From the NCBI GenBank assembly GCA_016211195.1, contig JACQSS010000045.1:1-47259 (forward strand): a DNA stretch of 47,259 nucleotides, given 5' to 3'. Shown piece after piece: positions 31,601 through 44,706 of the stretch (the stretch's first letter is position 1; each line of letters begins with the position of its first letter). The stretch comes from Candidatus Woesearchaeota archaeon. Its GTDB lineage: Archaea > Nanobdellota > Nanobdellia > Woesearchaeales > JAGVYF01. The position numbers and the translations under genes are program-made. The notes beneath the pieces were generated by a model. That model saw nothing but the letters and a program-made list of their open reading frames with translations, was not told the DNA's origin and searched no databases.

Positions 31601-31813
31601 CAGCACACCTTTGTTATCGAGGCAGCTGGCCTGACACGTCACAACAGTCGCTGTTTTTGAGCCGGGATTTGCCTGTGAAATGCCAACAGGTTCCCCATCA
31701 TCAGTTGTTTTCAGGATTTCTATTTTGCATGTTGACGGGTCAAGGGATTGGGCTGATAATGGGAACGCCAGAAGGAGAAAAACAACTGCACACACCAGCA
31801 AGCTTCTTTTCAT
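25631..31813 (-). CDS. Giant (about 2060 aa) secreted Cys-rich Ca-binding-repeat protein, no membrane anchor
   Basis: The track start at 31819 is TTG. The ATG at 31813 gives [23 protein letters not shown], with GGGG 6 nt upstream. It has a MopE-like putative metal-binding Cys motif ([25 protein letters not shown]). A canonical thrombospondin type 3 repeat ([26 protein letters not shown]) and many DxDxDG repeats occupy about nt 26620-27520. The C-terminus has Ig-like Cys-pair modules and no C-terminal TM. Confidence 0.9.
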   Translation of the reverse strand: [2060 protein letters not shown]

Positions 31814-31856
31814 TGACAACCCCTTTTAAGTAGACGTGAAAAAGAGGGTTGGCCGC

Positions 31857-31864: not shown

Positions 31865-31963
31865 GTTTGTGGTCGGGGAAATGGCTCATCCGGAAAGAGG
31901 AGTGCATCATTTTTCTGAGGCAAAAAGCAAACGTTTTTGAGCTGCCTGCCGTTGTCCGGCTGC

Positions 31964-32641
31964 ATGACCCATGTCGTGTTTCGGGACGATGATGTTGATG
32001 AGGTGAGTGATCAATTTCTTGCGTATCGTGACCTTATGAAAAAGTATGAGATGCCTGTTACCTATGCGGTCATTCCGGGAAGGACCAGTCCATCAAGTGC
32101 TCAGAAACTTAAGTCATTGAAAACAGCGAAAGATGTTTTTGTCCAGCACGGCTGGATGCATACGAATCATGGGACAGACACACAAAAGGCGGAGTTTGGA
32201 ATGCGCGAACCTGAAATAGAACAGCAGGAAATTCTTGCGGGGTATGCAAAAATGAAGGACCTTTTCGCAGATGATTTCCTGCCTGTTTTTGTGCCACCAT
32301 ATCATGCATATACACAGCACACATGGCATGCTGCACAGGAAGCGGGCTGCAAAGGATTCTCAGCAAAAAAAGGGCAGCCTGTCTGGGCAGGAATGAGGTC
32401 CCTCCCTGCGCATATTCTTTTTGATATCTATCGGGATGGGAAGCATTCATTTCTATCTGCACAAACAGCACTGCGGCAGTTCCTCTTTCTAAGAAAGCGG
32501 CCATTTGTCATCTTCCTGACGCATCACAAAAATATTGATTCATATGAACGTACCGAGCTGGAAAAGGTACTCCGGTTCCTCAGTCAGCTAAAGATGCGGG
32601 GTAAGGTGACGTTCTGTTCATTTGGAGACTTATTGCAATGA
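31964..32641 (+). CDS. Putative polysaccharide deacetylase-like protein
   Basis: The ATG at 31964 gives MTHVVFRDDDVDE... followed by ...YAVIPG... and HGWMHTNHG. An Asp-rich motif plus a His pair recalls divergent carbohydrate-esterase or deacetylase folds. The stop overlaps the next ATG (ATGA at 32638-32641). The family assignment is tentative. Confidence 0.45.
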   Translation: MTHVVFRDDDVDEVSDQFLAYRDLMKKYEMPVTYAVIPGRTSPSSAQKLKSLKTAKDVFVQHGWMHTNHGTDTQKAEFGMREPEIEQQEILAGYAKMKDLFADDFLPVFVPPYHAYTQHTWHAAQEAGCKGFSAKKGQPVWAGMRSLPAHILFDIYRDGKHSFLSAQTALRQFLFLRKRPFVIFLTHHKNIDSYERTELEKVLRFLSQLKMRGKVTFCSFGDLLQ

Positions 32642-33591
32642 AAATCATTAATCTTACTTTGGAAGTGACAAACAGGTGCAATATGCGCTGTGCCATGTGC
32701 GGCATCTGGGAAGAGAAGCAGAAAAAGGAGCTTTCAGTCAAGGAAGTTTCAACTTTATTTCATCATCCGCAGATCACGTACCCGGTTGGCTCCGTCTCAT
32801 TGACTGGGGGTGAGGTTTTCCTGCACTCAAAACTGGATACGCTCTATCGATATCTGTATCTGATGAAACGCCAAAAGAAAGTTGCAGCGATTGACATCGT
32901 GACCAGCGGCTATCTGACCGAGCAGATACTTGGCTTCCTTGAAAGAAACAAGGAATATCTCTGGGGGCTGGAGATGGACATCAGTCTTGACGGGCTCGAA
33001 GAAAAACACACTATGCAGCGTGGCTGGCCTGATGCATGGGCACGTACATGGAGGACTATTGATGCAATCAAGGCATTGTATCCATCGGTGAGGATAACAG
33101 CAAAATATACTATCAACGCATTAAACATCGATGATATTATGCCGGTTTACACGTTGTGCATGCAACGGGGCATTGCATTTCTCCCGAAATTCGTCGAGCA
33201 GGGGACAACTGCGTACTATCATCGCGTGCCAAAGCAGCATTCGCTTTTCATGATGACTGAAGAGAAACGGACCAAAGCGCTTGCCATTATCCAAGAGATT
33301 GCCTGCAAGGAAAAGGACAAGAAGCGCGCTGCACTCCTCAAGGAGCTGGTTGCATTGAAGGGCATGAAGGAAAATGTCACCACCTGCGGAACACCAGAAC
33401 AATCGCTATTCGTGACAGCGGATGGTTCTGTGCATGCCTGCATTTACATGCAGCCGATAGGGAATGTGTTTTCTCCTTTGGTCTTAGAAAATGCATGTCA
33501 CGCGGAACAGGTCGCTCGCGGTAGGGGCGGCACTTGCCCGAAATGTATCGCATATCACGGCTATCTCAGGAGCTGGAACTGTAGAAATTAA
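32638..33591 (+). CDS. Radical SAM enzyme with SPASM/twitch-like C-terminal Cys motifs
   Basis: The radical SAM CxxxCxxC motif is CNMRCAMC. C-terminal motifs are CGTPEQSLFVTADGSVHACIYMQPIGNV and GGTCPKC. Confidence 0.8.
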   Translation: MKIINLTLEVTNRCNMRCAMCGIWEEKQKKELSVKEVSTLFHHPQITYPVGSVSLTGGEVFLHSKLDTLYRYLYLMKRQKKVAAIDIVTSGYLTEQILGFLERNKEYLWGLEMDISLDGLEEKHTMQRGWPDAWARTWRTIDAIKALYPSVRITAKYTINALNIDDIMPVYTLCMQRGIAFLPKFVEQGTTAYYHRVPKQHSLFMMTEEKRTKALAIIQEIACKEKDKKRAALLKELVALKGMKENVTTCGTPEQSLFVTADGSVHACIYMQPIGNVFSPLVLENACHAEQVARGRGGTCPKCIAYHGYLRSWNCRN

Positions 33592-34648
33592 TGATGGCAT
33601 TGCAGACGACATCAACGTCTTTGGTATCCATCAATGGATAGAGTGGTAGAATAAGGGCTTCTCGTGTGTATCGTTCGGCCTGCGGAAATTGCTGGCTTGC
33701 GGTGTACGACGAAAAGAGTGGTATGCGGTGCAGCGGCAGGTATGGTTCTTTACAAATGATACCCTCTTTGGCCAAAGAAGCCATCAGCTCGTCTCGTCGA
33801 GGAGCATAGACGAGGTAAGACTGGCGAATGGACTGAGTACCGGGAGGGTCCCTGATAAGAGTAATGGGTGTCTGTGCCAAATGCGCTTCATACCGGGTAC
33901 GACACTCGTGCTTACGCTTTTCAATGAGGGATGCAACTTTCACCTTGACGTGCAGGGTTGCCATGTCACCATAGGACATCTTGCCCGGCGTCCTGTTGCA
34001 TTGGAGCACAGACGGATGTGCCTGCTCGATAGACAACATGGAGTGGATGCGTTCCCGATCCTCCTTGTGTTTGTATACTAATGCCCCACCTGTTCCTACA
34101 GAGGCGATTGTCTTGAACGGGTCAAACGAAAATGCCCCATATGTTCCGAATGAGCCCACCATGACACTACCTACCCGCGTTCCGTGTGCCTGACAACAAT
34201 CCTCTATCACTGAAACCCCTTTTTTTATGAGGACATCAAGAGCTGCGGCATGGCCATACATGTGAACGGGAATAATGCACCGCGTCTTTTCAGTGATGGT
34301 TACTTGTTGCTCATCGATGGTACAATCATCCTTGATATCAACAAAGCGAGGCAGAGCCCCGCAGGCCAGGATGGCTGCGATTGTAGATGGCCATGAGAGG
34401 ACGGGGAGGATAACGTCGTCGCCTACGCCAATTCCCACAAGCCGGCATGCGAGATACAGGGCAGTTGTCCCTGAATCAACAAATGTACACAGAGGTGTGC
34501 CAACATATTTAGCAAAAGCAGATTCCACATCCCGTTTATACGAAAAGAGCTGCTCAATGCGGCCCAAGGCATAGAGTGCACGGAACTCTTTCTCGATAAG
34601 CGGATAGAGCAGGCGATTGACTCGCATATCATCATGCGCTATCACCAT
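33566..34648 (-). CDS. DegT/DnrJ/EryC1/StrS-family PLP-dependent sugar aminotransferase
   Basis: Motifs seen are ...FAKYVGTPLCTFVDSGTTALYLA..., ...DDVILPVLSWPSTI..., IPVHMYGH, VIEDCCQAHG and SFDPFKTI (the putative PLP-Lys). Confidence 0.85.
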   Translation of the reverse strand: MVIAHDDMRVNRLLYPLIEKEFRALYALGRIEQLFSYKRDVESAFAKYVGTPLCTFVDSGTTALYLACRLVGIGVGDDVILPVLSWPSTIAAILACGALPRFVDIKDDCTIDEQQVTITEKTRCIIPVHMYGHAAALDVLIKKGVSVIEDCCQAHGTRVGSVMVGSFGTYGAFSFDPFKTIASVGTGGALVYKHKEDRERIHSMLSIEQAHPSVLQCNRTPGKMSYGDMATLHVKVKVASLIEKRKHECRTRYEAHLAQTPITLIRDPPGTQSIRQSYLVYAPRRDELMASLAKEGIICKEPYLPLHRIPLFSSYTASQQFPQAERYTREALILPLYPLMDTKDVDVVCNAIINFYSSSS

Positions 34649-35772
34649 CTAATCGCCTGTGCTGTGTTTTTTATCCCATCGAAACAATTCTCAGGGAGCT
34701 GCTTGGGGTGTAGTTGTAGGGCTTTCCGCAGGGCTACAGCAAGTGATGGTGTTGTGAGCTGCTCATAGCTGTGTGTCACGCTAAAGCCGAGTTGTTCTGC
34801 CATGAACGCCCGGTATCGTTGTTCCAGATAAAAGTTATTATTCTCTTTCTCCCGGGGGACAAGGACGCTGGGGGTTCCACAATAGAGCAACTGTACCACC
34901 GTCCCATACCCAGCCATGTTGATGCACGCGCGGGCAGATGCAAACAGGCCAGAAAGGCTTGCAACATGAGGATGAAGTTGCACATGGTAACAATTTGCCA
35001 GCTTGGTAAAGAGATGTAGTTCTGCTGGAGATGAAGCTGGCCCGGGCACACAGACGAACCTGTAGTCGGGAAATTGAGACGCAAGCTGGAGGCCGTATGC
35101 GATCAGCTTCGGGTAGATGACGCCACCTCCCCGCGACAGGAGAATCATGGGTTCACGGTTGGTTTTCTTGAGTGTGGATGGGAGGACATAACCAGTAAAT
35201 AAGAGAATATCATATTTTTTGAAAAAGGTGTTATACCATGCTGCAGTGGATGAAAGACCTTCTTTCTCAAGAAACACCTGCAAGAAATGAAGATCATACT
35301 CCTTAGGGGTATGAACGAACAACCGGTCAAACAGGGGAATCCATTGCTCTACTTTATGGATCGGCGTGCTGACGACCGGGTAGCCAATACTTGCATACAG
35401 TTTGACACCCTTTCTCTTGAGCCAGTGGAGAATGGGTAGCAGCTCAGGTGCACAGTCTTCACGACCAAAGGGGAAGTATTCTGTCATGAAAATATCGGGT
35501 GCAAAGCGTGTCAGTGCATCATACATCGTTTGTATTCTTTCTTTTACCTGCACTGTCGTGGGCTGCTGCATCGCCCCCCTGAAGACTTGCTTGGAATAAA
35601 AGGGGTAGGGAAGATTGATGACGGGAAATGGGCTCAGAGCAGACAACGGCTTGCCCCCTTGTAGGAAAAGAAAATCAATGTGTGAAAGTGCATGAAGTCC
35701 TTCTGCCAATGCAAAGACCCTTGTCGTATGACCAAGTGTCTCACAATGGGTGAAGTAGAATGCAAGACGCAT
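34642..35772 (-). CDS. Glycosyltransferase, GT28/MurG-like (COG4671-like)
   Basis: The N-terminus has ETLGHTTR (a GxGHxxR-like motif). The C-terminus has MAGYGTVVQLLYCGTPSVLVPRE......EQRYRA. It overlaps degT by 7 nt. Confidence 0.65.
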   Translation of the reverse strand: MRLAFYFTHCETLGHTTRVFALAEGLHALSHIDFLFLQGGKPLSALSPFPVINLPYPFYSKQVFRGAMQQPTTVQVKERIQTMYDALTRFAPDIFMTEYFPFGREDCAPELLPILHWLKRKGVKLYASIGYPVVSTPIHKVEQWIPLFDRLFVHTPKEYDLHFLQVFLEKEGLSSTAAWYNTFFKKYDILLFTGYVLPSTLKKTNREPMILLSRGGGVIYPKLIAYGLQLASQFPDYRFVCVPGPASSPAELHLFTKLANCYHVQLHPHVASLSGLFASARACINMAGYGTVVQLLYCGTPSVLVPREKENNNFYLEQRYRAFMAEQLGFSVTHSYEQLTTPSLAVALRKALQLHPKQLPENCFDGIKNTAQAIRW

Positions 35773-35793
35773 ACGGTGCAGCTCGGATAAAGC

Positions 35794-35801
35794 TATTTAA
35801 A
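35794..35801. promoter_or_regulatory. Bidirectional TATA box (TATTTAAA / TTTAAATA)
   Basis: The centre is at 35797.5. The minus-strand ATG at 35772 is 25.5 nt away. The plus-strand in-frame ATG at 35824 (MEGYIK...) is 26.5 nt away, whereas the ATG at 35806 is only 5 nt from the box. Confidence 0.6.
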
Positions 35802-35805
35802 GGTA

Positions 35806-36939
35806 ATGGCACTTGGCGGCCAGATGGAGGGTTATATCAAGGCATTATTGCAGGCATTTCCTGAATATGATGTCGGCGACTGGGCACACGTTCCTGTCAC
35901 GACTCGTCAGAAGATTGAACAATGGACATTCAGACAATGCAAAGACAAACCCGTCCTTATCTCGATGACGAGTGGCAGCTCAGGCACGCCTGCTACGATT
36001 TTCCATTCGGCTGCGTCTGTTCAGGCGAAAATTGAACGTGCCCAGCACCTCTTTGCACCGCTTTTTCAGGATAATGACCATGTTTTTTATAACCTTCTTG
36101 GCAGGTTCTGCATCACGAAAAAAACCGCAGAGCTTGCATTCCTCGGCTTGGGGAAATTATGCATCTCATTTGGGATTCCTTCAGAGAAAAATGCCAAGGC
36201 AATTCTTCATGCAACTGGGATGCGGCAGCCGGATGGGCTGCTTGCGACAACAGGGGGGCTGTCATCATTGCTTGAGCTGAAGATTCCTATCACAACAAAA
36301 TATGCTTTTGTGGGTGGGTCGTTGGGAACGAAAGAGTTCACAGAATGGGTCATCACATCACTCCAGTGCAGATACATCAATACCTATGCCTGCAATGAGT
36401 TTGGTGTCATTGCCGCTGATATTGGCGGAGACGGATTAGTCGCCGGAAGCAACATTTTCCTTGAGGTGTTGACTGAACAACAGGAAATCAAAGAAGAAGG
36501 TGTCGGGAAATTGCTTGTAACGGACTACACAAATTACGCGATGCCTTTTATCCGGTACGTGTTGGGTGATAAGGTTGAACTGAGAAAGAAGAATGGACAT
36601 GTCTGCATTACGGTGCTTGGGCGCAATGACCAATTTATCAATTTCGATCAAGTGCTTGTCTCATTGCCCTCACTCCTCGAGACCGTCAAGAATCTCCTGG
36701 GGCATGAGAAATTTTATGTCGCGATCTCACATGAGCAAAAGACGCTTTTTGATTGTGCGAAGGTCCATATCCCAGTCGGAGATGAACAGAAAGAAGGTGT
36801 CCTCAGAGAGCGCGTTCATGCATTGATAGGCAGGACCCCAAAAATAATCGTCACAGAGAAATTTTTTCGGGCGCAAAATGGGAAGTATCTCCAGTTCTTT
36901 GACCTGCGCAAGGCACCTGCACAGGGAGCCCATTGGTAG
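35806..36939 (+). CDS. Adenylate-forming enzyme, coenzyme F390 synthetase / phenylacetate-CoA ligase (PaaK/CapK)-like
   Basis: The AMP-binding P-loop is SMTSGSSGTPATIFHS, and the about 370-aa length fits. The likely true start is the ATG at 35824, based on promoter spacing. Confidence 0.7.
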   Translation: MALGGQMEGYIKALLQAFPEYDVGDWAHVPVTTRQKIEQWTFRQCKDKPVLISMTSGSSGTPATIFHSAASVQAKIERAQHLFAPLFQDNDHVFYNLLGRFCITKKTAELAFLGLGKLCISFGIPSEKNAKAILHATGMRQPDGLLATTGGLSSLLELKIPITTKYAFVGGSLGTKEFTEWVITSLQCRYINTYACNEFGVIAADIGGDGLVAGSNIFLEVLTEQQEIKEEGVGKLLVTDYTNYAMPFIRYVLGDKVELRKKNGHVCITVLGRNDQFINFDQVLVSLPSLLETVKNLLGHEKFYVAISHEQKTLFDCAKVHIPVGDEQKEGVLRERVHALIGRTPKIIVTEKFFRAQNGKYLQFFDLRKAPAQGAHW

Positions 36940-37798
36940 GGAGATACACCGTATATGTCCTCGTCTGCTTTGCCCAGTGCTCCTTATAGTGTCCATAACC
37001 GGTGTCAAAATTGATTTCATACTCTTCTGGCAACTGGAAAAGGTACTGGAGCGAGAAATAAACAAGTGCCTTTCCGGGACTGAGCACCTCCGCACTCGGG
37101 TCATAGACCATGGAAAAGAGATTGAGCCGCTGGCCCATCCGCACCCAGATAATAGCCCCCAGAGAAGCTCCATCCCGTTGCAGCTCGAATGCAAAAATAT
37201 CATGTGGTCTTGTTTTCAGGAGCAGATAGACGTATGTCATCAGTTCTTTGCTGTTGTAAAATGACGGCCCAAAACGCGCCCGATGCATGACAAAAAAGTC
37301 GCCCATCCTGGCCGATACGTGGGTGACTGGGACGCATGAGAGCTGTACCCATTTGTTCTTTCTTCGTCGTAGTTCCTTTCTCCAGCCCGGCCCGAGTCCT
37401 TGAAGGTAAGATGAGAAATCCTGCATAGAAGGTTTGACAAAAAAGTATTCTGTAGAGAGGATATTGGTGTGATTGGGTAGCTGCTGCTGGCCAGCAAGAC
37501 AGAAAGAATAGTGAGTATTACCAAGCGCCCCATCAAGATGGGCAGGCTCATCCCCAAGAAAGCCATCGCCTAACAGGAAGTCGCTGAGTGCTTGAAAGTA
37601 TGGCCCCTTTTTTTCCATGACCAGGAGAAAACCCTGCTCAAATGTAAGAACGTAGGGTTGTGCATGCGCTGAGAAAACGTGATTGAATGCAGTAAGTGTG
37701 TCCAGAAAAAAAAGTGTTTTCCAGTGCTTCGCTGTCTTTACCTTCTCGAGGAGACTAGACAAGACGGGGCTGGTGGGTGTCAAGAGTGACACTTGCAT
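36851..37798 (-). CDS. GNAT-fold acyltransferase, CelD / BioF2-like / FemAB-like (Acetyltransf_6-like)
   Basis: The C-terminal ...FELQRDGASLGAIIWVRMGQRLNLFSMVYDP....SPGKALVYFSLQY.......INFDTGYG.YKEHWA matches the CelD/FemAB-like pattern. The ATG lies 2 nt after the peptide gene stop. The 3' end overlaps the ligase gene by 89 nt in convergent orientation. Confidence 0.65.
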   Translation of the reverse strand: MQVSLLTPTSPVLSSLLEKVKTAKHWKTLFFLDTLTAFNHVFSAHAQPYVLTFEQGFLLVMEKKGPYFQALSDFLLGDGFLGDEPAHLDGALGNTHYSFCLAGQQQLPNHTNILSTEYFFVKPSMQDFSSYLQGLGPGWRKELRRRKNKWVQLSCVPVTHVSARMGDFFVMHRARFGPSFYNSKELMTYVYLLLKTRPHDIFAFELQRDGASLGAIIWVRMGQRLNLFSMVYDPSAEVLSPGKALVYFSLQYLFQLPEEYEINFDTGYGHYKEHWAKQTRTYTVYLPTNGLPVQVPCAGQRTGDTSHFAPEKISL

Positions 37799-37800
37799 GG

Positions 37801-38043
37801 TCAGCAGCCATCCTGGTGCTGGCTATGGTGGCTATGGGAACCGACTGCATTGGGGTCAACATAATTCAGAGAGAGAGAATTGGAATGAGGTGTGCTATCT
37901 ATGTGGTGTGCAGACACACTCGTGGACAAGCCCACTAATGTCCCTAATGCAACGCCCGCTTTGAGAATATTTTTTTTTGTCATTGTCCCTTTTTCATCAC
38001 GGACAAAGGCACCAAGGTCACGCTTTATCTTGGGAAGATCCAT
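37801..38043 (-). CDS. 80-aa His/Ser-rich putative precursor peptide (HxsA-like) with signal-like segment
   Basis: The sequence is MDLPKIKRDLGAFVRDEKGTMTKKNILKAGVALGTLVGLSTSVSA|HHIDSTPHSNSLSLNYVDPNAVGSHSHHSQHQDGC. The hydrophobic h-region ends in SVSA. The core is rich in His and Ser, with a single Cys as the last residue. It lies immediately downstream of a rSAM/SPASM gene and has its own TATA box. Confidence 0.6.
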   Translation of the reverse strand: MDLPKIKRDLGAFVRDEKGTMTKKNILKAGVALGTLVGLSTSVSAHHIDSTPHSNSLSLNYVDPNAVGSHSHHSQHQDGC

Positions 38044-38065
38044 GGTTATACAGAGTCATACTGTG

Positions 38066-38073
38066 TATATAAA
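38066..38073 (-). promoter_or_regulatory. TATA box (minus-strand TTTATATA) dedicated to the 80-aa peptide gene
   Basis: The centre at 38069.5 lies 26.5 nt upstream of the ATG at 38043, consistent with a leaderless mRNA. The box sits directly next to the rSAM stop codon (38076-38078). Confidence 0.55.
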
Positions 38074-38075
38074 GA

Positions 38076-39554
38076 TTACTTGTGGCAGCTTTTCGGCTCG
38101 GTGGGATGGGGTAACTGGGGAAGGGAAACCCAGCCCATGAAGATGGGCAAAGCCTTCGGGTCTGACACGATTTTCTCAAAGAGCCAGCTGAACTGTGCGA
38201 AGTAGATTTTATGGCGCATGGACTCTTTCATCTTCGGGAGGATATTGCCTTGCTCAGACACATTGAGGACTGGACACGTCCCACACCATGGCAAATATGC
38301 ACAGGTCTTACAGGTATAGTTATCAAGGATTGACGCCGCAATCGTGGACAACAAGGTATCAGACGCCATCATGTCCGTGTACTGATCTTTCATGACATGG
38401 CCGAGCTTGAAGAGATCTTCACCCAGCATTCTGCCCTCATCGCACGTGTACACACTACCATCATATTCGTATGCGATTTGTGTTCTGCCTGCGCCGCAAG
38501 GGGACATGAGCTCTGTATAGAAGGGATCCTGCTTTTTCAGAATTTTAGTAAGCATGGTTGCCAGCAACCGCTCTTTGATGGGGACACCTTTTTTATTGAG
38601 TTCAAGGATATAATCAGCAGCCGCTTGCCAGAAGGAGATAAATTCTTCAGCAGTATATCCAATCTCTTTCCACCTTGTGACAGCAATACCAAGGTAGTTT
38701 AGTGGCCGCAAATGGATTTCAGGCAAATGATGGGCAACATACTCGTCAACAATCTCCTTTGGATAGGGAAGCGACTGTTTGGTAATGGTGGGGAGTGCAC
38801 CAATGGGATGTGTACGACTGCGCAATGTCCCTTCGTGCTGGATGGCTCTTATCCATTTGGTCACCAGATGGTGCGTTGCCTGCTCACCACGCAATGGACG
38901 GTTTCTGTCATGCACCACAGCCGGCCCATCGAGTGAGGTACAAATTGAAACCTGATTGTCCATGAGAAACTGTATTTTATCGTCTGTCATGAGGCTGAGG
39001 TTGGTCACCGCAGTGATGCGGAGATCTTTCTTTTCTAATTCATTTAATTTACGGGCATTCTCGATAATGAATTGGACAATGGGCCAGTTGAGGAGGCATT
39101 CGCCTCCCTGAAACTCAATAGTAACAGCCTTGCTTGGCGTGCGGAAGACATTCTCGAGCACTTTGATTGCTGTCTCCCGTGTCATATCGACACCTTTGGC
39201 TATGGGTGCGCTGGTATGGCAGTATGAGCAATTGAAGTTGCACCGTGACGTGACAGAGATAATGTGGAGACTTGGTCCATTGAGCATATTGGCATTAATG
39301 CTCCGATAATTGCGCACAATCTCCTTCAGGTTCTCATCTGTCGCCACAAGACCTGCCCGGGCGAGTGTCATGTATAAAGGAGACGCAACATCGACGGTTC
39401 TTCTTTGCACATGGGCATATTCGTCCGCGTCCAGCAGAACCCATGACCCATACCGTGTGGTCAAAAGATATTTGTGCTTAATGGGGAGGACATTGTACGG
39501 CAGCAACCCTTTAATATCAGTGACTTGCATGGGACCGCACCTCTGCAAGAACAT
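38076..39554 (-). CDS. Radical SAM/SPASM peptide-maturase-like enzyme (HxsB/anSME-like)
   Basis: The radical SAM motif is CNFNCSYC. SPASM motifs are CGAGRTQIAYEYDGSVYTCDE and CKTCAYLPWCGTCPV. An N-terminal about 95-aa pre-domain (LLPYNVLPIKHKYLLTTRYGSWVLLDADEYAHV) is typical of peptide-modifying rSAMs. An alternative ATG is at 39530. Confidence 0.85.
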   Translation of the reverse strand: MFLQRCGPMQVTDIKGLLPYNVLPIKHKYLLTTRYGSWVLLDADEYAHVQRRTVDVASPLYMTLARAGLVATDENLKEIVRNYRSINANMLNGPSLHIISVTSRCNFNCSYCHTSAPIAKGVDMTRETAIKVLENVFRTPSKAVTIEFQGGECLLNWPIVQFIIENARKLNELEKKDLRITAVTNLSLMTDDKIQFLMDNQVSICTSLDGPAVVHDRNRPLRGEQATHHLVTKWIRAIQHEGTLRSRTHPIGALPTITKQSLPYPKEIVDEYVAHHLPEIHLRPLNYLGIAVTRWKEIGYTAEEFISFWQAAADYILELNKKGVPIKERLLATMLTKILKKQDPFYTELMSPCGAGRTQIAYEYDGSVYTCDEGRMLGEDLFKLGHVMKDQYTDMMASDTLLSTIAASILDNYTCKTCAYLPWCGTCPVLNVSEQGNILPKMKESMRHKIYFAQFSWLFEKIVSDPKALPIFMGWVSLPQLPHPTEPKSCHK

Positions 39555-39738
39555 AATTTATAAATTCCCGCGCGACCTTTTTTTCAGTATCGGGGTACGT
39601 CAGGACAATATAATCTCCATCCTCATCAGTGACTGTATGCAAAAATGCTGCATACATTTCTATGCAGGCAAGGAGAATCTCTTTGGGGTACAATGTTTTG
39701 TGAAACTTACTGCTGCTCATCTTTGATTTCCTGAACAA
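39517..39738 (-). CDS. Small HxsD-like protein (paralogue of the N-terminal half of 39707-40123)
   Basis: ...TLYPKEILLACIEMYAAFLHTVTDEDGDYIVLTYPD...AREFINYVL aligns by eye with ATYSLTTLYAAAYAFLDRAYVHLDKKDNAFVATLYPK...AKAFLAELV of the upstream gene. It overlaps both neighbours. Confidence 0.5.
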   Translation of the reverse strand: MFRKSKMSSSKFHKTLYPKEILLACIEMYAAFLHTVTDEDGDYIVLTYPDTEKKVAREFINYVLAEVRSHASH

Positions 39739-40123
39739 GCTGTTGCAGTTCAGGGTCCTTCTCTAGTTCAGTGAGCAGTTGTTTGATTTCTTCCTGTTCA
39801 GCTTTTTCTGCAAGCGCGGGATCGGTGGAGAAGAATGCACGTTCCACGAGCAGCTTCGTGGTTTCCTGCGTTTTTTCCAATTGTGCAAAATAATACCCCT
39901 GGTTGACCAGTTCTGCAAGGAACGCTTTTGCAAGGGTCGTGAAATCCTGTGCCTGCTTGGGATAGAGCGTCGCAACGAATGCATTATCTTTCTTGTCAAG
40001 ATGGACATACGCCCTGTCTAGGAATGCATAGGCCGCCGCATAAAGTGTTGTAAGCGAATATGTTGCTTCCGGCAGGAGCAGAGAGACTGCCTGCTCTGCT
40101 TCGTTGATAGTGATTCCCCCCAT
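39707..40123 (-). CDS. HxsD-like protein with acidic coiled C-terminus
   Basis: The 138-aa protein carries the motif FLAELVNQGYYFAQLEKTQETTKLLVERAFF. This loosely recalls the LLNDYxLRE signature that names the HxsD family (TIGR03976), a recollection I have not searched. It has its own TATA box at 40147-40154. Confidence 0.55.
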   Translation of the reverse strand: MGGITINEAEQAVSLLLPEATYSLTTLYAAAYAFLDRAYVHLDKKDNAFVATLYPKQAQDFTTLAKAFLAELVNQGYYFAQLEKTQETTKLLVERAFFSTDPALAEKAEQEEIKQLLTELEKDPELQQLVQEIKDEQQ

Positions 40124-40145
40124 GCATCCATAGGGACGGACTGAA

Positions 40146-41051
40146 TTATATAAAACTTGTTATGAGTGAGAGAAAAATACCATGCGAAACGATGGTAAGC
40201 AACACACCGAAAAATAAGCAAGGGGCAAAAGGGATCTTGTCATAGACGAGTGCAGGCTGATCAATAAGCCGAGCATCTTGCGCAGTGATCATAGCACCTT
40301 TCTTAAGCGAGGAAATGTCTTCTGCGAGAATATCACCATCATGCGGACGTTTGCGGGTAGCGAATGAGTTTGCATGGGTGGCAATGTATTGTGTTATCGC
40401 GAGAAGCAAGAATGTGTAGAGCAGGAAATGAAACCAGAATGAGAATGTTCGTAGTGTTGTGTCGGTGACGAGACGATAAACAATCAAAAGCGCTTGCACC
40501 CAAAACCCAAAAGGAAGTGTTGCAAAGACTGAAGACAGCGCCAGCAGCAGAAGGAACTGCAACACCGTGTTTGATACAAGCAATGCTGGCAGCCATGCGA
40601 GTGCAAAGACACTGAGCGCAGCATTGGCAAGAGCATGGACTGGGAAACGATGACGGAATAACGGAAGGCTGGTGAGCAGCGCAATAGGAATGAAGGTATT
40701 CATTAAAAGGACGAGCGCAGGAAAATAAGGGACATAGCCACGCTGATAGACAGAAACGGGAACCAGGAGGGCGTAGGTGATGAAAAGCTTTGCATCGCCA
40801 CCATACCACCATTTTTTCTTCCACAATGCAAGTGCGACAATAATTGACACGAGCAGATTAGAAGATGTGGTATAAACAAACGAGAAATTCAATTTCTCTG
40901 TCGTGAGAATGAAAATCGTATAGACCAGCAAGGCGATGAAAAAGACAGGTGTTACCAGTTGATTAGGAATGATCTGTTTTCGGGAGTCGTAGAATGAAGA
41001 AGCGATTCCCAGAAAGAGGATGAGGGGAAGAGTAACTGTAAGGGGGTCCAT
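40146..41051 (-). CDS. Type IV prepilin / preflagellin peptidase (A24 family, EppA/PibD/FlaK-like)
   Basis: The ATG at 41051 gives MDPLTVTLPLILFLG.... The first catalytic Asp context is SFYDSRKQIIPN and the second is WWYGGDAKLF. It is polytopic, with the conserved C-terminal IPFAP motif. The track extension to 41210 overlaps the upstream gene. Confidence 0.8.
   Translation of the reverse strand: MDPLTVTLPLILFLGIASSFYDSRKQIIPNQLVTPVFFIALLVYTIFILTTEKLNFSFVYTTSSNLLVSIIVALALWKKKWWYGGDAKLFITYALLVPVSVYQRGYVPYFPALVLLMNTFIPIALLTSLPLFRHRFPVHALANAALSVFALAWLPALLVSNTVLQFLLLLALSSVFATLPFGFWVQALLIVYRLVTDTTLRTFSFWFHFLLYTFLLLAITQYIATHANSFATRKRPHDGDILAEDISSLKKGAMITAQDARLIDQPALVYDKIPFAPCLFFGVLLTIVSHGIFLSLITSFI
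40147..40154 (-). promoter_or_regulatory. TATA box (minus-strand TTTATATA) at the head of the rSAM-peptide module
   Basis: The centre at 40150.5 lies 27.5 nt upstream of the ATG at 40123. The box overlaps the stop codon of the peptidase gene. Confidence 0.5.
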
Positions 41052-41073: not shown

Positions 41074-42615
41074 TTATGTACTTTTCGCAAGCAGCTGCTG
41101 TTGACTTGTGGACAGGGAACGGACTGGTGCTGCACCAGACTCTTCAAGAATTTTGCCGGTGGGAGTTTTGACTTTGGTGTACAACCCTTCTGGAGAGAGA
41201 ATATATTCATAGGCGGCGTCCTTCACCTTATAGCGTTGCTTTATTCTGACCGCAAGGTCGTACACAACATGACTATCCCCTTTGGCCAGTGAGCGGATAG
41301 CGAGGGGGAAGAAACCACGTTCACCCAACAAGAGAATATCCTCCTTTCCCCGCGCAAGGATAATGTAATCCGCCTGACCGCGGGCGCCAATGGACAGATC
41401 AATTGCATTTTTAAGCAATGAAGAAAGTGCACCCTGACCAAAGGTGAGCCCCGCCGTAGGGGGCGAAAATGTCGCGTGGCCGGTCAGCATCGGTCGCCTA
41501 TCTTCGACAGGCTGCAGGACCACGCCTGTCTGGGGGGAGAAAAGGCGGGTGTTCGTCTCGTAAACACCTTGCACGTATCGTGTCACCCCGGGTGCAAGCC
41601 AGAGCAGGAGGGATGATGCATCGAGTGTCAGCGCACCGTTCACTTCGGCAACAGAAACGATGGTCTCACCAACTGGATCGATAATGAAAAGACCATAATG
41701 ATTCCGAACACCACGCTTTGTCTGTGAGAGCGTATAGAGATTAGTGCCTTGACCATTAAGAACATCGATTGTGCTCGCACGTGTGATAACTGTGTCGGTT
41801 CCCTTGTTCAGTGCTGCGGGAACCTGGGTTGTTGTTCCGTCAAGCGAACTAATGGTCGTGCCCTTGTCAGTGAATTGGAACCCAGCAGATGGAGTGGCCT
41901 TTGCATCTGCGACGTTTTTTGCAGCTTCTCGTCCCGCTGCGCTTTGCGTTAATGGGAGACATGGCCCCAGGCAGCACATGCTGTTTTGCGAACTATCTGC
42001 AGTGACTATTTGCTCTGCACATGAATTCTTCAGCAGACTGCATTTTGTCCCGCCAATGGCGCTGCATAGAACAGCTTTCTCACGTTCCGGGGGAGGCGGA
42101 GCAGCTTGGGGGGTGCTTGGCGTTTCCGGAACAGGTTTTAATGCACCCATAAGCGCGGCAACGCCTTGTAGGAGTCCACCAAGACTAGCTAATGACTGAG
42201 ACATGTCCTGTTGTGGTCGCTGCCGGCCACCACCCAGCTGTTCTTGTGGTGGTGACCTGATATCAGCCCCTTGTTGCATTGCCATTTCGGGTGAACCGAC
42301 TTGCTCCGCGGGCTGGCCATCTGCTTCGACGACATCACCCAACCGGTCCTGTGTCCCGGGACCACGGACATCCATTTTCTTTTCTGCCAGCGCTTCCCGC
42401 ACGTCAGGATCTTTTAGTTCCTTTTCCTGCGACAATTTATCACATGCGCCGCAATCGCTCCCCTCGCTGCATGCACCTTCTGGGCAGGATGCGATGTCCT
42501 GCTGGATTTCTTCGGGTGTGTCCTCTAGCTCAGCGTCTTCGCCTTCCTGTGGAGTGTCTCCCCATGAGAGCATTGCACCGAACAAAAGGAAAATCAGAAA
42601 GAAACTAACCCTCAT
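41074..42615 (-). CDS. Secreted protein of unknown family, paralogue 1
   Basis: The ATG at 42615 gives MRVSFFLIFLLFGAMLSWG, with GAGGA 7 nt upstream. It has an acidic and Pro/Gln-rich variable region, the LGGLLQGVAALM motif and a Cys motif. A about 300-aa C-terminal domain is shared with 42605-44662 and 46671-47258. Confidence 0.8.
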   Translation of the reverse strand: MRVSFFLIFLLFGAMLSWGDTPQEGEDAELEDTPEEIQQDIASCPEGACSEGSDCGACDKLSQEKELKDPDVREALAEKKMDVRGPGTQDRLGDVVEADGQPAEQVGSPEMAMQQGADIRSPPQEQLGGGRQRPQQDMSQSLASLGGLLQGVAALMGALKPVPETPSTPQAAPPPPEREKAVLCSAIGGTKCSLLKNSCAEQIVTADSSQNSMCCLGPCLPLTQSAAGREAAKNVADAKATPSAGFQFTDKGTTISSLDGTTTQVPAALNKGTDTVITRASTIDVLNGQGTNLYTLSQTKRGVRNHYGLFIIDPVGETIVSVAEVNGALTLDASSLLLWLAPGVTRYVQGVYETNTRLFSPQTGVVLQPVEDRRPMLTGHATFSPPTAGLTFGQGALSSLLKNAIDLSIGARGQADYIILARGKEDILLLGERGFFPLAIRSLAKGDSHVVYDLAVRIKQRYKVKDAAYEYILSPEGLYTKVKTPTGKILEESGAAPVRSLSTSQQQLLAKST

Positions 42616-44698: not shown

Positions 44699-44706
44699 TA
44701 TATAAA
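44699..44706. promoter_or_regulatory. TATA box (TATATAAA / TTTATATA) between paralogue 2 and tnpB
   Basis: The centre is at 44702.5. The tnpB ATG at 44730 is 27.5 nt away, consistent with a leaderless mRNA. On the minus strand it predicts a about 14-nt leader carrying GGAGGTGA before the ATG at 44662. Confidence 0.5.

What the first reader, a model, noticed from the sequence alone, without database searches (positions are those of the whole stretch)
36851..40154. His-Xaa-Ser-system-like radical SAM peptide-maturation module inside an archaeal surface/pilus operon
A TATA box at 40147-40154 heads a compact minus-strand unit. It comprises two paralogous small proteins (138 aa and 73 aa) that resemble HxsD and a 492-aa radical SAM enzyme. 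That enzyme has CNFNCSYC plus full SPASM Cys motifs and a peptide-maturase-style N-terminal pre-domain. Next come an 80-aa protein with a signal-like segment and a His/Ser-rich tail (AHHIDSTPHSNSLS...GSHSHHSQHQDGC) and a CelD/FemAB-like GNAT starting 2 nt after the peptide stop. The content recalls the bacterial His-Xaa-Ser (HxsABCD) system, whose chemistry and function are, to my knowledge, still unknown. It differs in three ways: only one adjacent rSAM, duplicated HxsD-like genes, and an added acyltransferase. It is co-oriented with a prepilin peptidase and secreted paralogues, so it may represent an undescribed RiPP-like or exported-peptide modification system.
Basis: partly seen in the sequence, partly recalled or inferred. 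Interest (0 to 1): 0.8.

Follow-up and report, generated by a model that had tools for sequence, protein, structure and literature searches.

The report
Archaeal His-Xaa-Ser peptide-maturation variant
This archaeal gene cluster is a stripped-down, re-equipped relative of the bacterial HXS system, which was recently shown to block phage DNA entry. It makes and modifies a small exported histidine-rich peptide, and it belongs to a large unstudied branch of that system found mostly in ultra-small archaea and bacteria.

Summary

- **Radical SAM enzyme.** It passes NCBI's HxsB equivalog cutoff (423 bits against 370).
- **73-aa protein.** It passes the HxsD-like model.
- **138-aa protein.** It carries Pfam HxsD and is a profile-level paralogue of the 73-aa protein.
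- **80-aa ORF.** It aligns end to end with HxsA3 but below cutoff. It is conserved under purifying selection, with dN/dS about 0.05-0.11.
- **HxsC.** None is present.

The "function unknown" premise is outdated. Canonical HxsABCD is an anti-phage DNA-entry barrier (Li et al. 2026).

Across 84 non-redundant related loci from DPANN archaea, CPR bacteria, Omnitrophota, Planctomycetes and others, the core is HxsD – HxsD-like – HxsB – mini-HxsA. The mini-HxsA has a conserved 30-aa N-terminal leader, a hydrophobic segment, a His/Ser core and a C-terminal Tyr, Trp or Cys. A distinct A24 peptidase subfamily accompanies the cassette in 34 loci. A GT28-type glycosyltransferase, extra radical SAM enzymes and a Cys-rich anchored protein also recur.

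The GNAT is confined to this clade (three genomes) and sits where the Cys-rich protein sits elsewhere.

Verdict: a new variant of a known kind. Its chemistry and biological role are untested.

The parts
40147..40154 (-). Archaeal TATA box (TTTATATA) for the hxsD-hxsD'-hxsB transcription unit. It overlaps the stop codon of the A24 gene.
   Evidence: exact match; 6 copies in the window against 0.42 expected; it lies 24-31 nt upstream of the ATG at 40123, a spacing that fits a leaderless transcript.
39707..40123 (-). HxsD-family protein, 138 aa. Has a beta-beta-alpha-beta-beta core followed by long helices.
   Evidence: TIGR03976 gives E 8.3e-10 at 38.9 bits, below the 50 cutoff. Precomputed Pfam PF27806 HxsD. 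Homologues found in 76 of 84 loci. AF2 model pLDDT 79. No significant PDB fold match.
39517..39738 (-). HxsD-like protein (HxsD_rel). 73 aa from the TTG start, probably 67 aa from the ATG at 39720.
   Evidence: NF038315 scores 51 bits against a 41 cutoff. hhalign against the 138-aa family gives probability 97.7% and E 2.4e-12. Homologues found in 55 of 84 loci.
38076..39554 (-). HxsB radical SAM/SPASM maturase. 492-aa ORF; probably 484 aa from the ATG at 39530.
   Evidence: TIGR03978 scores 422.8 bits against a 370 cutoff. More than 4000 homologues, many already named HxsB in DPANN and CPR genomes. 36% identical to a proteobacterial plasmid HxsB. Nearest solved structure is CteB, 5wgg.
38066..38073 (-). 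Second TATA box (TTTATATA), giving the precursor peptide and GNAT genes their own promoter.
   Evidence: it starts 2 nt after the HxsB stop codon and lies 23-30 nt upstream of the peptide ATG at 38043.
37801..38043 (-). HxsA3/A4-type mini-precursor, 80 aa.
- Leader: aa 1-30 (LPKIKRDLGAFVRDEKGTMTKKNILKAG).
- Hydrophobic segment: aa 31-45, ending in V-S-A.
- His/Ser core: aa 46-80 (HHIDSTPHSNSLSLNYVDPNAVGSHSHHSQHQDGC).
   Evidence: NF038309 HxsA3 gives E 8.9e-7 at 28.6 bits, below the 65 cutoff, aligned over positions 2-77 of 81. Orthologues are 66-76% identical. dN/dS is 0.05-0.11. Family alignment of 62 peptides. 46 of 54 family members end in Y, W, C or F.
36851..37798 (-). GNAT-superfamily protein (Acetyltransf_6), 315 aa. 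Probably translationally coupled to the peptide gene and specific to this lineage.
   Evidence: Pfam PF13480 scores 26.5 bits against a 22 cutoff. Only 3 members in 5.8 billion proteins, 49-51% identical. The AF2 model is poor (pLDDT 54) and gives only GNAT-fold matches. Its 3' end overlaps the convergent AMP-ligase gene by 89 nt.
40146..41051 (-). A24 (prepilin-type) aspartyl peptidase of an Hxs-associated subfamily. About 301 aa from Met54 of the 354-aa ORF that runs to 41210.
   Evidence: Pfam Peptidase_A24 at 32.5 bits. Full-length subfamily matches in 34 of 84 loci, and directly upstream of HxsD in 14 of 23 archaeal loci. D75 and G138-D139 are invariant in 33 of 33 sequences.
34642..35772 (-). 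GT28-type (MurG-like) glycosyltransferase. Candidate accessory that travels with the cassette across domains.
   Evidence: Pfam Glyco_tran_28_C. Orthologues occur next to Hxs cassettes in 11 loci, including Planctomycetes and Omnitrophota, at 25-35% identity over the full length.
31937..36939 (.). Neighbouring sugar/acyl block. Linkage to the Hxs module is inferred from synteny only.
- Polysaccharide deacetylase: 31937-32641 (+).
- 317-aa radical SAM enzyme: 32638-33591 (+).
- DegT aminotransferase: 33566-34648 (-).
- GT28: 34642-35772 (-).
- AMP-dependent ligase: 35806-36939 (+).
   Evidence: Pfam and NCBIfam hits. The same set is syntenic in L001 and L004, and in L006 at 50% HxsB identity. 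The radical SAM enzyme is not HxsC: 35 bits against a 268 cutoff.

Best explanation
This is an HxsB-only variant of the His-Xaa-Ser peptide-maturation system, of the HxsA3/A4 type, in a DPANN-like archaeon.

**Shown**
- Two archaeal promoters drive two units: (i) hxsD, hxsD-like and hxsB, and (ii) the 80-aa precursor plus a GNAT.
- The precursor has three parts.
  - A leader that is highly conserved across archaea and bacteria: LPxIKKxLxxFxxDE(E/K)GxIxKKxxxKxG.
  - A hydrophobic segment of about 15 aa ending in an AxA-type site (V-S-A).
  - A 35-aa His/Ser-rich core ending in Cys.

**Inferred**
1. In the cytoplasm the HxsD and HxsD-like pair acts as a chaperone-like adaptor. It presents the precursor to HxsB, probably through the conserved leader.
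2. HxsB uses its radical SAM cluster and two SPASM clusters to install a covalent modification in the His/Ser core. The invariant motifs HSNSLS and HSHH, and the C-terminal Cys/Tyr/Trp, are the likely sites.
3. The hydrophobic segment then inserts the precursor in the membrane, N-terminus inside and C-terminus outside.
4. The leader is removed in one of two ways. Either the adjacent dedicated A24 peptidase cuts at K-A-G|V on the cytoplasmic face, or signal peptidase I cuts at V-S-A|H on the outer face.
5. The result is a cell-envelope, membrane-anchored or released, modified His-rich peptide.
6. The co-transcribed GNAT may add an acyl or aminoacyl group in this clade.

**Biological role**
- By analogy with E. 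coli HXS, the peptide would be an envelope-level barrier to virus entry. I put this at about 0.3.
- Its recurrent placement in type IV pilin loci and next to a travelling glycosyltransferase fits a surface or pilus-associated role equally well.
For: **Family assignment**
- HxsB passes the equivalog cutoff.
- HxsD_rel passes its cutoff, and the 138-aa protein carries Pfam HxsD.
- The two small proteins are homologous at profile level.
- The peptide aligns over the full length of HxsA3, and relatives hit HxsA3 or HxsA4.

**Conservation**
- The cassette is syntenic in three close relatives.
- In 84 loci (one species-representative genome each, plus the close relatives), HxsD occurs in 76, HxsD-like in 55 and mini-HxsA in 67.
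- The peptide is under purifying selection.
- The leader motif and small-residue sites are conserved in 62 aligned peptides.
- A C-terminal Y, W, C or F occurs in 46 of 54 peptides against a 14% background.

**A24 peptidase**
- The subfamily is present in 34 of 84 loci. Catalytic Asp residues are invariant and conservation spans the full length.
- Gly at the putative -1 position is found in 24 of 28 A24-linked loci against 17 of 32 others.

**Transcription.** Two TATA boxes sit at leaderless spacing.

Against: - No chemistry or processing was observed. Everything after gene identity is inference.
- The peptide scores below the curated HxsA3 cutoff and contains only one strict H-x-S triplet.
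- HxsC, which forms the HxsC-HxsD core complex in E. coli, is absent. The division of labour must therefore differ.
- The core has no Lys or Arg and three Asp. The electrostatic DNA-binding model proposed for E. coli HxsA does not transfer well.
- The K-A-G|V site does not match this genome's own pilin signal, [KR][GA]|Q. The A24 enzyme may therefore serve the six pilin-like proteins in the window instead.
- The A24 gene appears to be co-transcribed with the upstream secreted paralogues rather than with hxsD.
- The Gly enrichment at the putative -1 position is not corrected for phylogeny.
Confidence: 0.7

Rival explanations
1. **Pilus-linked product.** The precursor is a type IV pilin-like substrate. 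The dedicated A24 peptidase removes the 30-aa leader at K-x-G. The hydrophobic helix then anchors the modified His/Ser tail in the membrane, or feeds it into a type IV filament, where it serves adhesion, host interaction or metal binding rather than virus defence.
For: - The A24 subfamily is directly upstream of HxsD in 14 of 23 archaeal loci, and present in 8 of 11 Omnitrophota and 3 of 6 Planctomycetes loci.
- Most Omnitrophota and Planctomycetes loci that carry the A24 enzyme have no pilin gene within 8 kb.
- L025 has both a subfamily A24 and a generic A24.
- The window holds six pilin-like proteins.
- Saccharibacteria loci carry PilB, PilC and pilins next to the cassette.
- The putative -1 position is a small residue and is enriched for Gly when the A24 enzyme is linked.
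Against: - The leader is about 30 aa and its site is K-Phi-G, not [KR][GA]|Q as in this genome's pilins.
- The hydrophobic stretch is short, about 15 aa.
- It is followed by a well-conserved [AVS]-x-[AG] signal peptidase I-type site.
- Only 3 of 18 CPR loci have the A24 subfamily nearby.
Confidence: 0.25
2. **Secreted natural product.** The module makes a diffusible RiPP. Signal peptidase I releases the 35-aa modified His-rich core, which acts as a metallophore, metal buffer or antimicrobial. It has no role in virus exclusion or pili.
For: - The architecture is RiPP-like: a leader, a core, and a SPASM maturase with an N-terminal pre-domain. HxsB's nearest relatives outside the Hxs families are RiPP maturases such as PapB, nif11-type, CcpM and SCIFF.
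- The peptide gene has its own strong promoter.
- The core is His-rich (7 His in 35 aa) with a terminal Cys.
- An AxA-type site is conserved.
Against: - The only experimentally studied Hxs system yields a cell-bound protein effector, not a diffusible compound (PMC13128918).
- No transporter or peptidase-containing ABC exporter lies in the conserved neighbourhood.
- A conserved Cys-rich membrane-anchored partner in other lineages suggests a cell-surface assembly.
Confidence: 0.2
3. **The GNAT is not an Hxs component.** It belongs functionally to the adjacent amino-sugar and acyl block (AMP ligase, GT28, DegT, radical SAM enzyme, deacetylase). There it N-acylates a sugar, and it merely shares a transcript with the peptide.
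For: - The GNAT is found in only 3 genomes, whereas the cassette is widespread.
- L006 has the same sugar block but no GNAT.
- It evolves faster than its neighbours: 49-51% identity against 71-72% for HxsB.
- DegT, an acyltransferase and a ligase together form a classic N-acyl amino-sugar logic (established knowledge of DegT/GNAT sugar pathways).
Against: - Its start codon lies 2 nt after the peptide stop, behind the peptide's own TATA box.
- It occupies exactly the slot held elsewhere by the conserved Cys-rich partner.
- Acetyltransf_6 and FemAB-like enzymes commonly act on peptides. Some full-length fold matches are to aminoacyl-tRNA-dependent peptide synthases, although the model is weak.
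Confidence: 0.35
4. **Chance.** The 80-aa ORF is a spurious ORF next to an orphan SPASM enzyme, and the Hxs resemblance is a compositional artefact.
For: - The peptide's HMM score is below the curated cutoff.
- His/Ser-rich sequence is of low complexity.
Against: - dN/dS is 0.05-0.11 with saturated synonymous sites.
- The non-repetitive leader is conserved across two domains of life.
- 60 representative clusters match it.
- It has its own TATA box.
Confidence: 0.02

Closest known systems
Canonical HxsABCD (HXS) system of Pseudomonadota. Haft & Basu families TIGR03976-TIGR03979; anti-phage function shown by Li et al., Nat Commun 2026 (PMC13128918).
   Same: - An HxsB equivalog is present (passes cutoff; 33-36% identical to plasmid HxsB).
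- An HxsD-family partner is present.
- The substrate is His/Ser-rich, has an export signal and is encoded next to the enzymes.
- The C-terminal aromatic residue is shared with a short proteobacterial HxsA that ends in SSSY.
   Different: - There is no HxsC.
- There are two HxsD-type proteins instead of one.
- The substrate is an 80-aa mini-protein without a peptidoglycan-binding domain.
- It has a conserved 30-aa leader ahead of the hydrophobic segment, where the canonical HxsA has a plain Sec signal.
- Its H-x-S repeats are degenerate and it has no basic residues.
- An A24 peptidase, a GT28 and a GNAT accompany it.
- The host is an archaeon. Li et al. report that 99.7% of HXS systems are in Pseudomonadota.
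NCBIfam variant Hxs families: HxsA3 (NF038309), HxsA4 (NF038313), HxsD_rel (NF038315) and HxsC4 (NF038332).
   Same: - The 73-aa protein is an HxsD_rel member by cutoff.
- The peptide and its relatives align over the full length of HxsA3 or HxsA4.
- One Omnitrophota locus has an HxsC4-like enzyme.
   Different: - The window peptide (28.6 bits) and most DPANN and CPR relatives fall below the curated cutoffs. Only 1 of the 10 relatives tested, plus the window peptide, passes.
- No paper in the searched library describes these variants, their leader, or their A24, GT28 or Cys-rich partners.
Radical SAM/SPASM RiPP maturases with leader-guided substrates. Examples: CteB/SCIFF, PapB ranthipeptides, three-residue cyclophane (triceptide) enzymes, and MftC acting on a C-terminal Tyr.
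   Same: - A SPASM enzyme with an N-terminal pre-domain. The nearest solved structure is CteB.
- A leader plus core peptide.
- Short repeated aromatic-x-polar motifs and a conserved C-terminal Tyr, Trp or Cys, which recall triceptide and mycofactocin logic. This comparison rests on my knowledge of those families and was not tested.
   Different: - Scores to all of these families are far below their cutoffs, at most 122 bits.
- The accessory protein is HxsD, not an RRE. No significant fold match was found, and the weak top hits are type III secretion chaperones, Rpb11 and Pcc1.
- The product is probably retained at the envelope.
Class III (type IV pilin-like) signal peptides and A24 prepilin peptidases (PilD, FlaK, PibD, EppA, TadV).
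   Same: - The adjacent enzyme has the two catalytic Asp residues and the C-terminal PF(A/G)P-like motif of the A24 family.
- The precursor has a charged leader, then a small residue, then a hydrophobic helix.
- The F-x-x-D-E-x-G stretch of the leader resembles the Flp prepilin leader. This is a recalled resemblance and was not tested.
   Different: - The leader is long and its junction is K-Phi-G|V rather than [KR][GA]|Q.
- About 10 polar residues separate the DE-x-G stretch from the hydrophobic segment.
- The Pfam Flp family does not hit the peptide.

Membership tests
His-Xaa-Ser system (HxsABCD) | An HxsB radical SAM/SPASM maturase that meets the TIGR03978 equivalog cutoff. | tested here: met
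   Scores 422.8 bits against a 370 cutoff, covering residues 18-476 and model positions 2-466 of 466.
His-Xaa-Ser system (HxsABCD) | A second, paired radical SAM enzyme HxsC (TIGR03977) next to HxsB. | tested here: not met
   - The only other radical SAM enzyme near the module (32638-33591) scores 35 bits against a 267.9 cutoff. A TYW1-type enzyme lies far away at 9231-10175.
- phmmer with a canonical HxsC finds nothing in the window or in L001, L003 or L004.
His-Xaa-Ser system (HxsABCD) | A small HxsD protein (TIGR03976 / Pfam PF27806). | tested here: met
   - The 138-aa protein carries a precomputed PF27806 hit.
- Its TIGR03976 match gives E 8e-10 but 38.9 bits, below the 50 cutoff.
- The 73-aa protein passes NF038315.
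- The two families are homologous at 97.7% hhalign probability.
His-Xaa-Ser system (HxsABCD) | An HxsA substrate with tandem His-Xaa-Ser repeats (TIGR03979). | tested here: not met
   - There is no TIGR03979 hit.
- Only one strict H-x-S triplet is present in the 80-aa peptide.
- There is no peptidoglycan-binding domain.
HxsA3/HxsA4-type variant Hxs system (NCBIfam NF038309, NF038313, NF038315) | A short precursor that matches the HxsA3 or HxsA4 model above cutoff. | tested here: inconclusive
   - The peptide scores 28.6 bits against a 65 cutoff, but aligns over positions 2-77 of 81 at E 9e-7.
- Relatives score 20-57 bits on HxsA3, and one passes the HxsA4 cutoff.
- The leader motif is shared by 62 aligned peptides.
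HxsA3/HxsA4-type variant Hxs system (NCBIfam NF038309, NF038313, NF038315) | An HxsD-like protein (NF038315) encoded directly upstream of HxsB. | tested here: met
   Scores 51 bits against a 41 cutoff, and overlaps the HxsB start by 14 nt.
Anti-phage defence system (HXS sensu Li et al. 2026) | Confers resistance to virus infection by blocking genome entry. | not testable with these tools
   - There are no specific PADLOC-DB v2.0.0 (2023) hits.
- The neighbourhood consists of surface, pilin and glycan genes rather than a recognisable defence island.
- The host is uncultivated.
RiPP with an RRE-dependent radical SAM maturase | The accessory protein has an RRE (winged-helix, PqqD-like) fold. | tested here: not met
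   - The HxsD138 model (pLDDT 79) is beta-beta-alpha-beta-beta followed by long helices.
- No PDB match reaches E <= 0.001. The best weak hits are type III secretion chaperones, Rpb11 and Pcc1.
- The N-terminal pre-domain of HxsB itself was not modelled.
Anaerobic sulfatase maturase or cofactor maturase | Best match, above cutoff, to anSME, PqqE, MftC or similar. | tested here: not met
   anSME TIGR03942 scores 89 bits against a 349 cutoff. All non-Hxs families score 122 bits or less.
Type IV pilin-like (class III signal peptide) substrate of an A24 peptidase | A short basic leader ending in [KR][GA], immediately followed by a hydrophobic helix of about 20 aa. | tested here: inconclusive
   - The window peptide has a 30-aa leader, the junction K28-A29-G30|V31, and 15 hydrophobic residues.
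- The genome's own pilin-like proteins use [KR][GA]|Q.
- Gly at the putative -1 position is enriched in A24-linked loci, p = 0.011 uncorrected.
GNAT superfamily, Acetyltransf_6 (CelD/FemAB-like) | A Pfam PF13480 match above the gathering score, and a GNAT fold. | tested here: met
   - Scores 26.5 bits against a 22 cutoff over residues 139-270.
- Foldseek hits are all GNATs, but the model is poor at pLDDT 54.
- The donor and acceptor substrates are unknown.

The most novel reading that the evidence does not exclude
The window samples an undescribed extended Hxs-type system that has spread across domains.

**Components**
- A leader-bearing mini-HxsA.
- HxsB.
- An HxsD and HxsD-like pair.
- A dedicated A24-family leader peptidase.
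- A travelling GT28 glycosyltransferase.
- Extra radical SAM enzymes.
- A Cys-rich anchored partner, replaced here by a GNAT.

**Proposed reading**
- The system is widespread in ultra-small episymbionts: DPANN archaea, CPR bacteria and Omnitrophota.
- It builds a radical-SAM-modified, possibly glycosylated, His-rich peptide on the cell envelope or on type IV filaments.
- That peptide acts in virus exclusion or host attachment.
- The A24 aspartyl protease would then be a RiPP leader peptidase, a role not known for that family.
Probability: 0.3. Interest if true: 0.75.

Novelty: new variant of a known kind. Interest (0 to 1): 0.55.

Why it matters
The HXS system has only just been given a function, blocking phage DNA entry. 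It was reported as almost exclusive to Pseudomonadota, because the survey was anchored on the long HxsA protein. This window points the other way.

- **Scale.** HxsB has more than 4000 relatives in the protein database (E ≤ 1e-20, among the 8000 candidates scored). The best-matching named ones come from DPANN archaea, CPR bacteria, Omnitrophota, Planctomycetes and Myxococcota. In the 84 loci examined it works without canonical HxsC on a very different substrate: a mini-protein with a conserved leader.
- **New partners.** It keeps company with proteins never linked to Hxs: a distinct A24 peptidase subfamily, a GT28 glycosyltransferase, extra radical SAM enzymes and a Cys-rich anchored protein.
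- **Tractable chemistry.** The precursors are short and soluble-sized, at 70-130 aa. E. coli HxsA is insoluble and its +8 Da modification remains unresolved, so these peptides may be easier substrates for solving what HxsB does.
- **Biology of small symbionts.** If the branch is functional, it could reveal an envelope-level antiviral or host-interaction device in organisms whose surface biology is largely unknown.
- **Annotation.** The curated HxsA3 and HxsA4 cutoffs miss most of these precursors.

Tried and rejected
- **RRE-like fold for HxsD.** The model is decent (pLDDT 79) but has no significant PDB match and is not a winged helix. Rejected.
- **BLASTP paralogy of the two small proteins.** Not detectable (E 0.028). 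Only the profile-profile comparison shows it.
- **HxsC elsewhere in the window.** The 317-aa radical SAM enzyme is generic, and phmmer with a canonical HxsC finds nothing.
- **GNAT as a general system component.** It occurs in only 3 genomes. The ~260-315-aa ORFs in the same slot in other loci have no GNAT signature and turn out to be a Cys-rich anchored family. That family has no homologue in the window.
- **GNAT function from structure.** The alignment has only 3 sequences and the model is poor (pLDDT 54), so only the superfamily can be assigned. Sequence search of the PDB found nothing.
- **PADLOC.** Only generic radical SAM similarity to viperins.
- **Viral contigs.** 18 IMG/VR loci carry HxsB relatives at 25-35% identity. 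None is close to the window enzyme, and their type and context were not examined.
- **Taxon of the window.**
  - An archaeal origin is inferred from CDC48, TYW1, the TATA boxes and the class III pilin signals.
- **L003 peptide.** It appears on the opposite strand as a 192-aa ORF. The contig end repeats the HxsB 3' end in inverted orientation. I treated this as an assembly artefact and did not use it.
- **Sigma-70 promoter scan.** Not run, because it does not apply to archaea.

Full report
**1. Observation**

The five minus-strand ORFs are exactly as described.
- 138 aa: 39707-40123.
- 73 aa: 39517-39738, from a TTG start. An ATG at 39720 gives the 65-67-aa product that gene callers chose in relatives.
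- 492 aa: 38076-39554.
- 80 aa: 37801-38043.
- 315 aa: 36851-37798.

The GNAT ATG follows the peptide's TGA after two bases. The radical SAM enzyme has CNFNCSYC and a full set of SPASM cysteines. The cluster cysteines are invariant in 28 homologues.

TTTATATA lies at 40147-40154(-), 24-31 nt upstream of the first ATG.
- The octamer occurs six times in the window against 0.42 expected.
- Each of the six copies lies 23-63 nt upstream of an ORF start, so it is this genome's TATA box and the transcripts are probably leaderless.
- The module is therefore two transcription units: hxsD-hxsD'-hxsB, and peptide-GNAT.
- The A24 gene has only 22 nt between it and the upstream 535-aa gene. It probably belongs to that upstream unit.

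**2. What the parts are**

NCBIfam results:
- The radical SAM enzyme is HxsB: TIGR03978 at 422.8 bits against a 370 cutoff, over the full length. The next families, PapB and nif11-type maturases, reach 122 bits or less. Anaerobic sulfatase maturase reaches 89.
- The 73-aa protein passes HxsD_rel: NF038315 at 51 bits against 41.
- The 138-aa protein hits HxsD (TIGR03976, E 8e-10) but below cutoff. It carries the newer Pfam HxsD family PF27806.
- The 80-aa protein aligns over positions 2-77 of the 81-position HxsA3 model (NF038309) at E 9e-7, but scores only 28.6 bits against a 65 cutoff.

BLASTP does not relate the two small proteins. A profile-profile comparison of their families does, at 97.7% probability and E 2.4e-12.

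The GNAT is Pfam Acetyltransf_6.

There is no HxsC. Near the module the only other radical SAM enzyme is at 32638-33591, and it is generic. The window's remaining radical SAM enzyme is a TYW1 type far away at 9231-10175. A canonical HxsC finds nothing in the window or in its close relatives.

The window is archaeal. It encodes CDC48 and TYW1, uses TATA boxes, and holds six proteins with [KR][GA]|Q class III signal peptides. The nearest named HxsB homologues come from Woesearchaeota and Nanoarchaeota.

**3. Relatives**

HxsB has more than 4000 homologues at E <= 1e-20 among the 8000 candidates scored.

Three close relatives (71-75% identical) are syntenic. The gene order is A24, HxsD, HxsD-like, HxsB, an 82-85-aa peptide, GNAT, AMP ligase, GT28, DegT, a radical SAM enzyme, a deacetylase, then a giant protein. 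The peptide is 66-76% identical among them. Synonymous sites are saturated and dN/dS is about 0.05-0.11.

A scan of one genome per species returned 80 further loci with HxsB at 39-50% identity. They come from DPANN archaea, Patescibacteria, Omnitrophota, Planctomycetes, Myxococcota and others.

I searched all six-frame ORFs of these loci with profiles built from the window proteins. I also clustered the neighbourhood genes without prior labels. Counts in 84 non-redundant loci:

| Component | Loci |
|---|---|
| HxsD | 76 |
| HxsD-like | 55 |
| Mini-HxsA | 67 |
| A24 peptidase subfamily | 34 |
| At least one extra radical SAM gene (145 genes in all) | 65 |
| GT28-type glycosyltransferase | 11 |
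| DegT | 8 |
| AMP ligase | 6 |
| GNAT (the window and two relatives) | 3 |

- The GNAT has no other homologue among 5.8 billion proteins.
- In most other loci the slot after the peptide gene holds a 255-315-aa protein with an N-terminal anchor and 10-18 cysteines. These form one family across archaea, Omnitrophota, Planctomycetes and CPR. The window has no member.
- Some of the extra radical SAM enzymes are HxsC-like or HxsC4-like. Others are PapB-like, or belong to B12-binding or methylthiotransferase-like classes.

**4. The peptide family**

An alignment of 62 peptides shows four features.
- A leader conserved across both domains: (K)[LF]PxIKKx[IL]xxF[LIV]xx[DE]E[EK]Gx[IVM][ST]K[KE]xxxKxG.
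- A hydrophobic segment of 15-20 aa.
- A small-x-small site such as VSA|HH, AAA|HS or SAA|CSH.
- A His/Ser core.

In CPR bacteria the core is (SHG)n, with up to about 40 repeats.

In the archaeal group it is shorter and degenerate. It has H[ST]N[ST]L[ST] and G-x-HSHH-x-x-H motifs. The window peptide has only one strict H-x-S triplet.

46 of 54 peptides end in Tyr, Trp, Cys or Phe, against a 14% background. Among database representatives the figure is 39 of 53.

A proteobacterial plasmid system with HxsC has a 91-aa HxsA. That HxsA has a plain Sec signal, (HxS)n repeats and a C-terminal SSSY. The terminal aromatic residue is therefore shared, while the long leader is specific to the variant.

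Relatives' peptides hit HxsA3 or HxsA4, mostly below cutoff.

A single-sequence search of 1.84 billion representatives finds 60 clusters, nearly all 72-130 aa.

**5. The A24 peptidase**

- The neighbours form a subfamily that aligns over all 301 profile positions.
- Asp75 and Gly138-Asp139 are invariant in 33 of 33 sequences, and the C-terminal F-A-x-x-x-F-x-G motif is conserved.
- It sits directly upstream of HxsD in 14 of 23 archaeal loci. It is also present in 8 of 11 Omnitrophota and 3 of 6 Planctomycetes loci, usually paired with a radical SAM gene on the opposite strand.
- One archaeal locus has both a subfamily member (228 bits) and a generic A24 (30 bits).

Two readings are possible.
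- **(a) It removes the precursor's leader at K-x-G|hydrophobic.** The -1 residue is always small. It is Gly in 24 of 28 A24-linked loci against 17 of 32 others (p = 0.011, not corrected for phylogeny).
- **(b) It serves neighbouring pilins.**
  - The window has six pilin-like proteins with [KR][GA]|Q signals.
  - Pilin genes lie near the cassette in many archaeal loci.
  - Several Saccharibacteria loci carry PilB, PilC and pilins.

The well-conserved AxA-type site after the hydrophobic segment argues that signal peptidase I could release the core without any A24 step. I cannot decide between these readings computationally.

**6. Other structure evidence**

- The HxsD138 model (pLDDT 79) is beta-beta-alpha-beta-beta followed by long helices.
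- It has no significant PDB neighbour. The weak top hits are type III secretion chaperones, Rpb11 and Pcc1.
- It is not an RRE. A chaperone or adaptor role is plausible and fits the HxsC-HxsD complex reported in E. coli.
- The GNAT model is poor (pLDDT 54) and supports only superfamily membership.

**7. Comparison with what is known**

Li et al. (Nat Commun 2026, PMC13128918) report the following for E. coli HxsABCD.
- The system blocks phage DNA entry.
- HxsA carries a peptidoglycan-binding domain and basic HxS repeats that bind DNA.
- 99.7% of systems are in Pseudomonadota.

The window system shares HxsB and HxsD and the logic of an exported His/Ser substrate. It differs in several ways.
- It lacks HxsC.
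- It has two HxsD-type proteins.
- Its substrate is a mini-protein with a leader, without a peptidoglycan domain and without basic residues: three Asp and no Lys or Arg in the core.
- It has different partners.

No paper in the searched library mentions HxsA3, HxsA4 or archaeal or CPR Hxs systems. NCBIfam models show that curators knew variants exist.

**8. Mechanism and confidence**

| Claim | Confidence |
|---|---|
| This is an Hxs-family maturation module acting on the 80-aa precursor | about 0.9 |
| The full chain: chaperone-assisted HxsB modification in the cytoplasm, membrane insertion, leader removal, and an envelope-located modified peptide | about 0.7 |
| Antiviral role | about 0.3 |
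| Pilus or surface-associated role | about 0.25 |
| Diffusible RiPP or metallophore | about 0.2 |
| The GNAT acts on the peptide rather than on a sugar | roughly even |

**9. Verdict**

Its novelty claim needs trimming: the core is a database-recognised variant of a system that now has a known function. What is new is the anatomy of that variant and its wide spread outside Pseudomonadota. The new elements are the conserved leader, the C-terminal aromatic or Cys residue, the dedicated A24 subfamily, the travelling GT28, the Cys-rich partner, and the clade-specific GNAT replacement. I class it as a new variant of a known kind, with interest 0.55.

Noticed in passing
window 9201-9208(+), 11385-11392(-), 38066-38073(-), 40147-40154(-), 44699-44706(-), 46662-46669(-): TTTATATA occurs six times against 0.42 expected, each time 23-63 nt upstream of an ORF start. 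It looks like this genome's TATA box, and most transcripts are probably leaderless.
   Followed up: partly
window 11468-11995(-), 11988-12467(-), 12464-13504(-), 13410-13910(-), 23106-25634(-), 45869-46639(-): Six proteins begin with archaeal class III (type IV pilin-like) signals of the form [KR][GA]|Q followed by a hydrophobic helix. Examples are MARGQAEILGIAIIIV and MKRGQLTLFSILGIM. None has a Pfam hit. They flank giant secreted proteins, so the window looks like a pilus or surface-filament locus.
   Followed up: partly
window 13913-23026(-), 25631-31819(-), 54-3935(+): Giant ORFs of 3037, 2062 and 1293 aa. The first two have Sec-type signal peptides and Cys-rich N-termini. The 1293-aa protein has no Pfam hit; the other two were not scanned. 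Proteins of this kind are typical of DPANN surface proteins.
   Followed up: no
window 44730-45815(+): A TnpB-like gene (OrfB_IS605 plus the Cas12f1-like TNB domain). It lies between the 685-aa secreted-protein gene and a pilin-like gene, on the opposite strand to both.
   Followed up: partly
window 41074-42681(-) and 42605-44662(-): Two paralogous secreted proteins of 535 and 685 aa, directly upstream of the A24 gene and probably co-transcribed with it.
- Each has a Sec signal, a low-complexity Gly/Pro/Gln region and a shared C-terminal domain.
- Neither has a Pfam hit.
- The family is seen only in the window and three close relatives.
   Followed up: no
L003 9466-10206: The contig end repeats the 3' end of HxsB in inverted orientation and places the peptide gene on the opposite strand as a 192-aa ORF. 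This is most likely a hairpin-type assembly artefact.
   Followed up: partly
L042 9374-17380; also L021, L024, L028, L032, L037, L038, L056, L075: Several CPR loci carry runs of up to seven or eight additional ~300-aa radical SAM genes directly after HxsB. In L042 the run ends with the A24 subfamily peptidase, and no mini-HxsA was detected there.
   Followed up: no
L026 3311-4825, L052 10661-12226, L037 10488-11276: Some CPR precursors are much longer, at 262-521 aa. They have the same leader, 22-41 HxS triplets, and an extra C-terminal domain. Some have Cys interspersed in the repeats, as in SCHxSH.
   Followed up: no
L087-L104 (IMG/VR contigs): HxsB relatives at 25-35% identity occur on 18 viral or prophage contigs. 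Their type and gene context were not examined.
   Followed up: no
window 36851-36939: The window's GNAT ORF runs about 25 aa past the end of its two orthologues. It overlaps the convergent AMP-ligase gene by 89 nt, so the stop codon has probably shifted in this genome.
   Followed up: no
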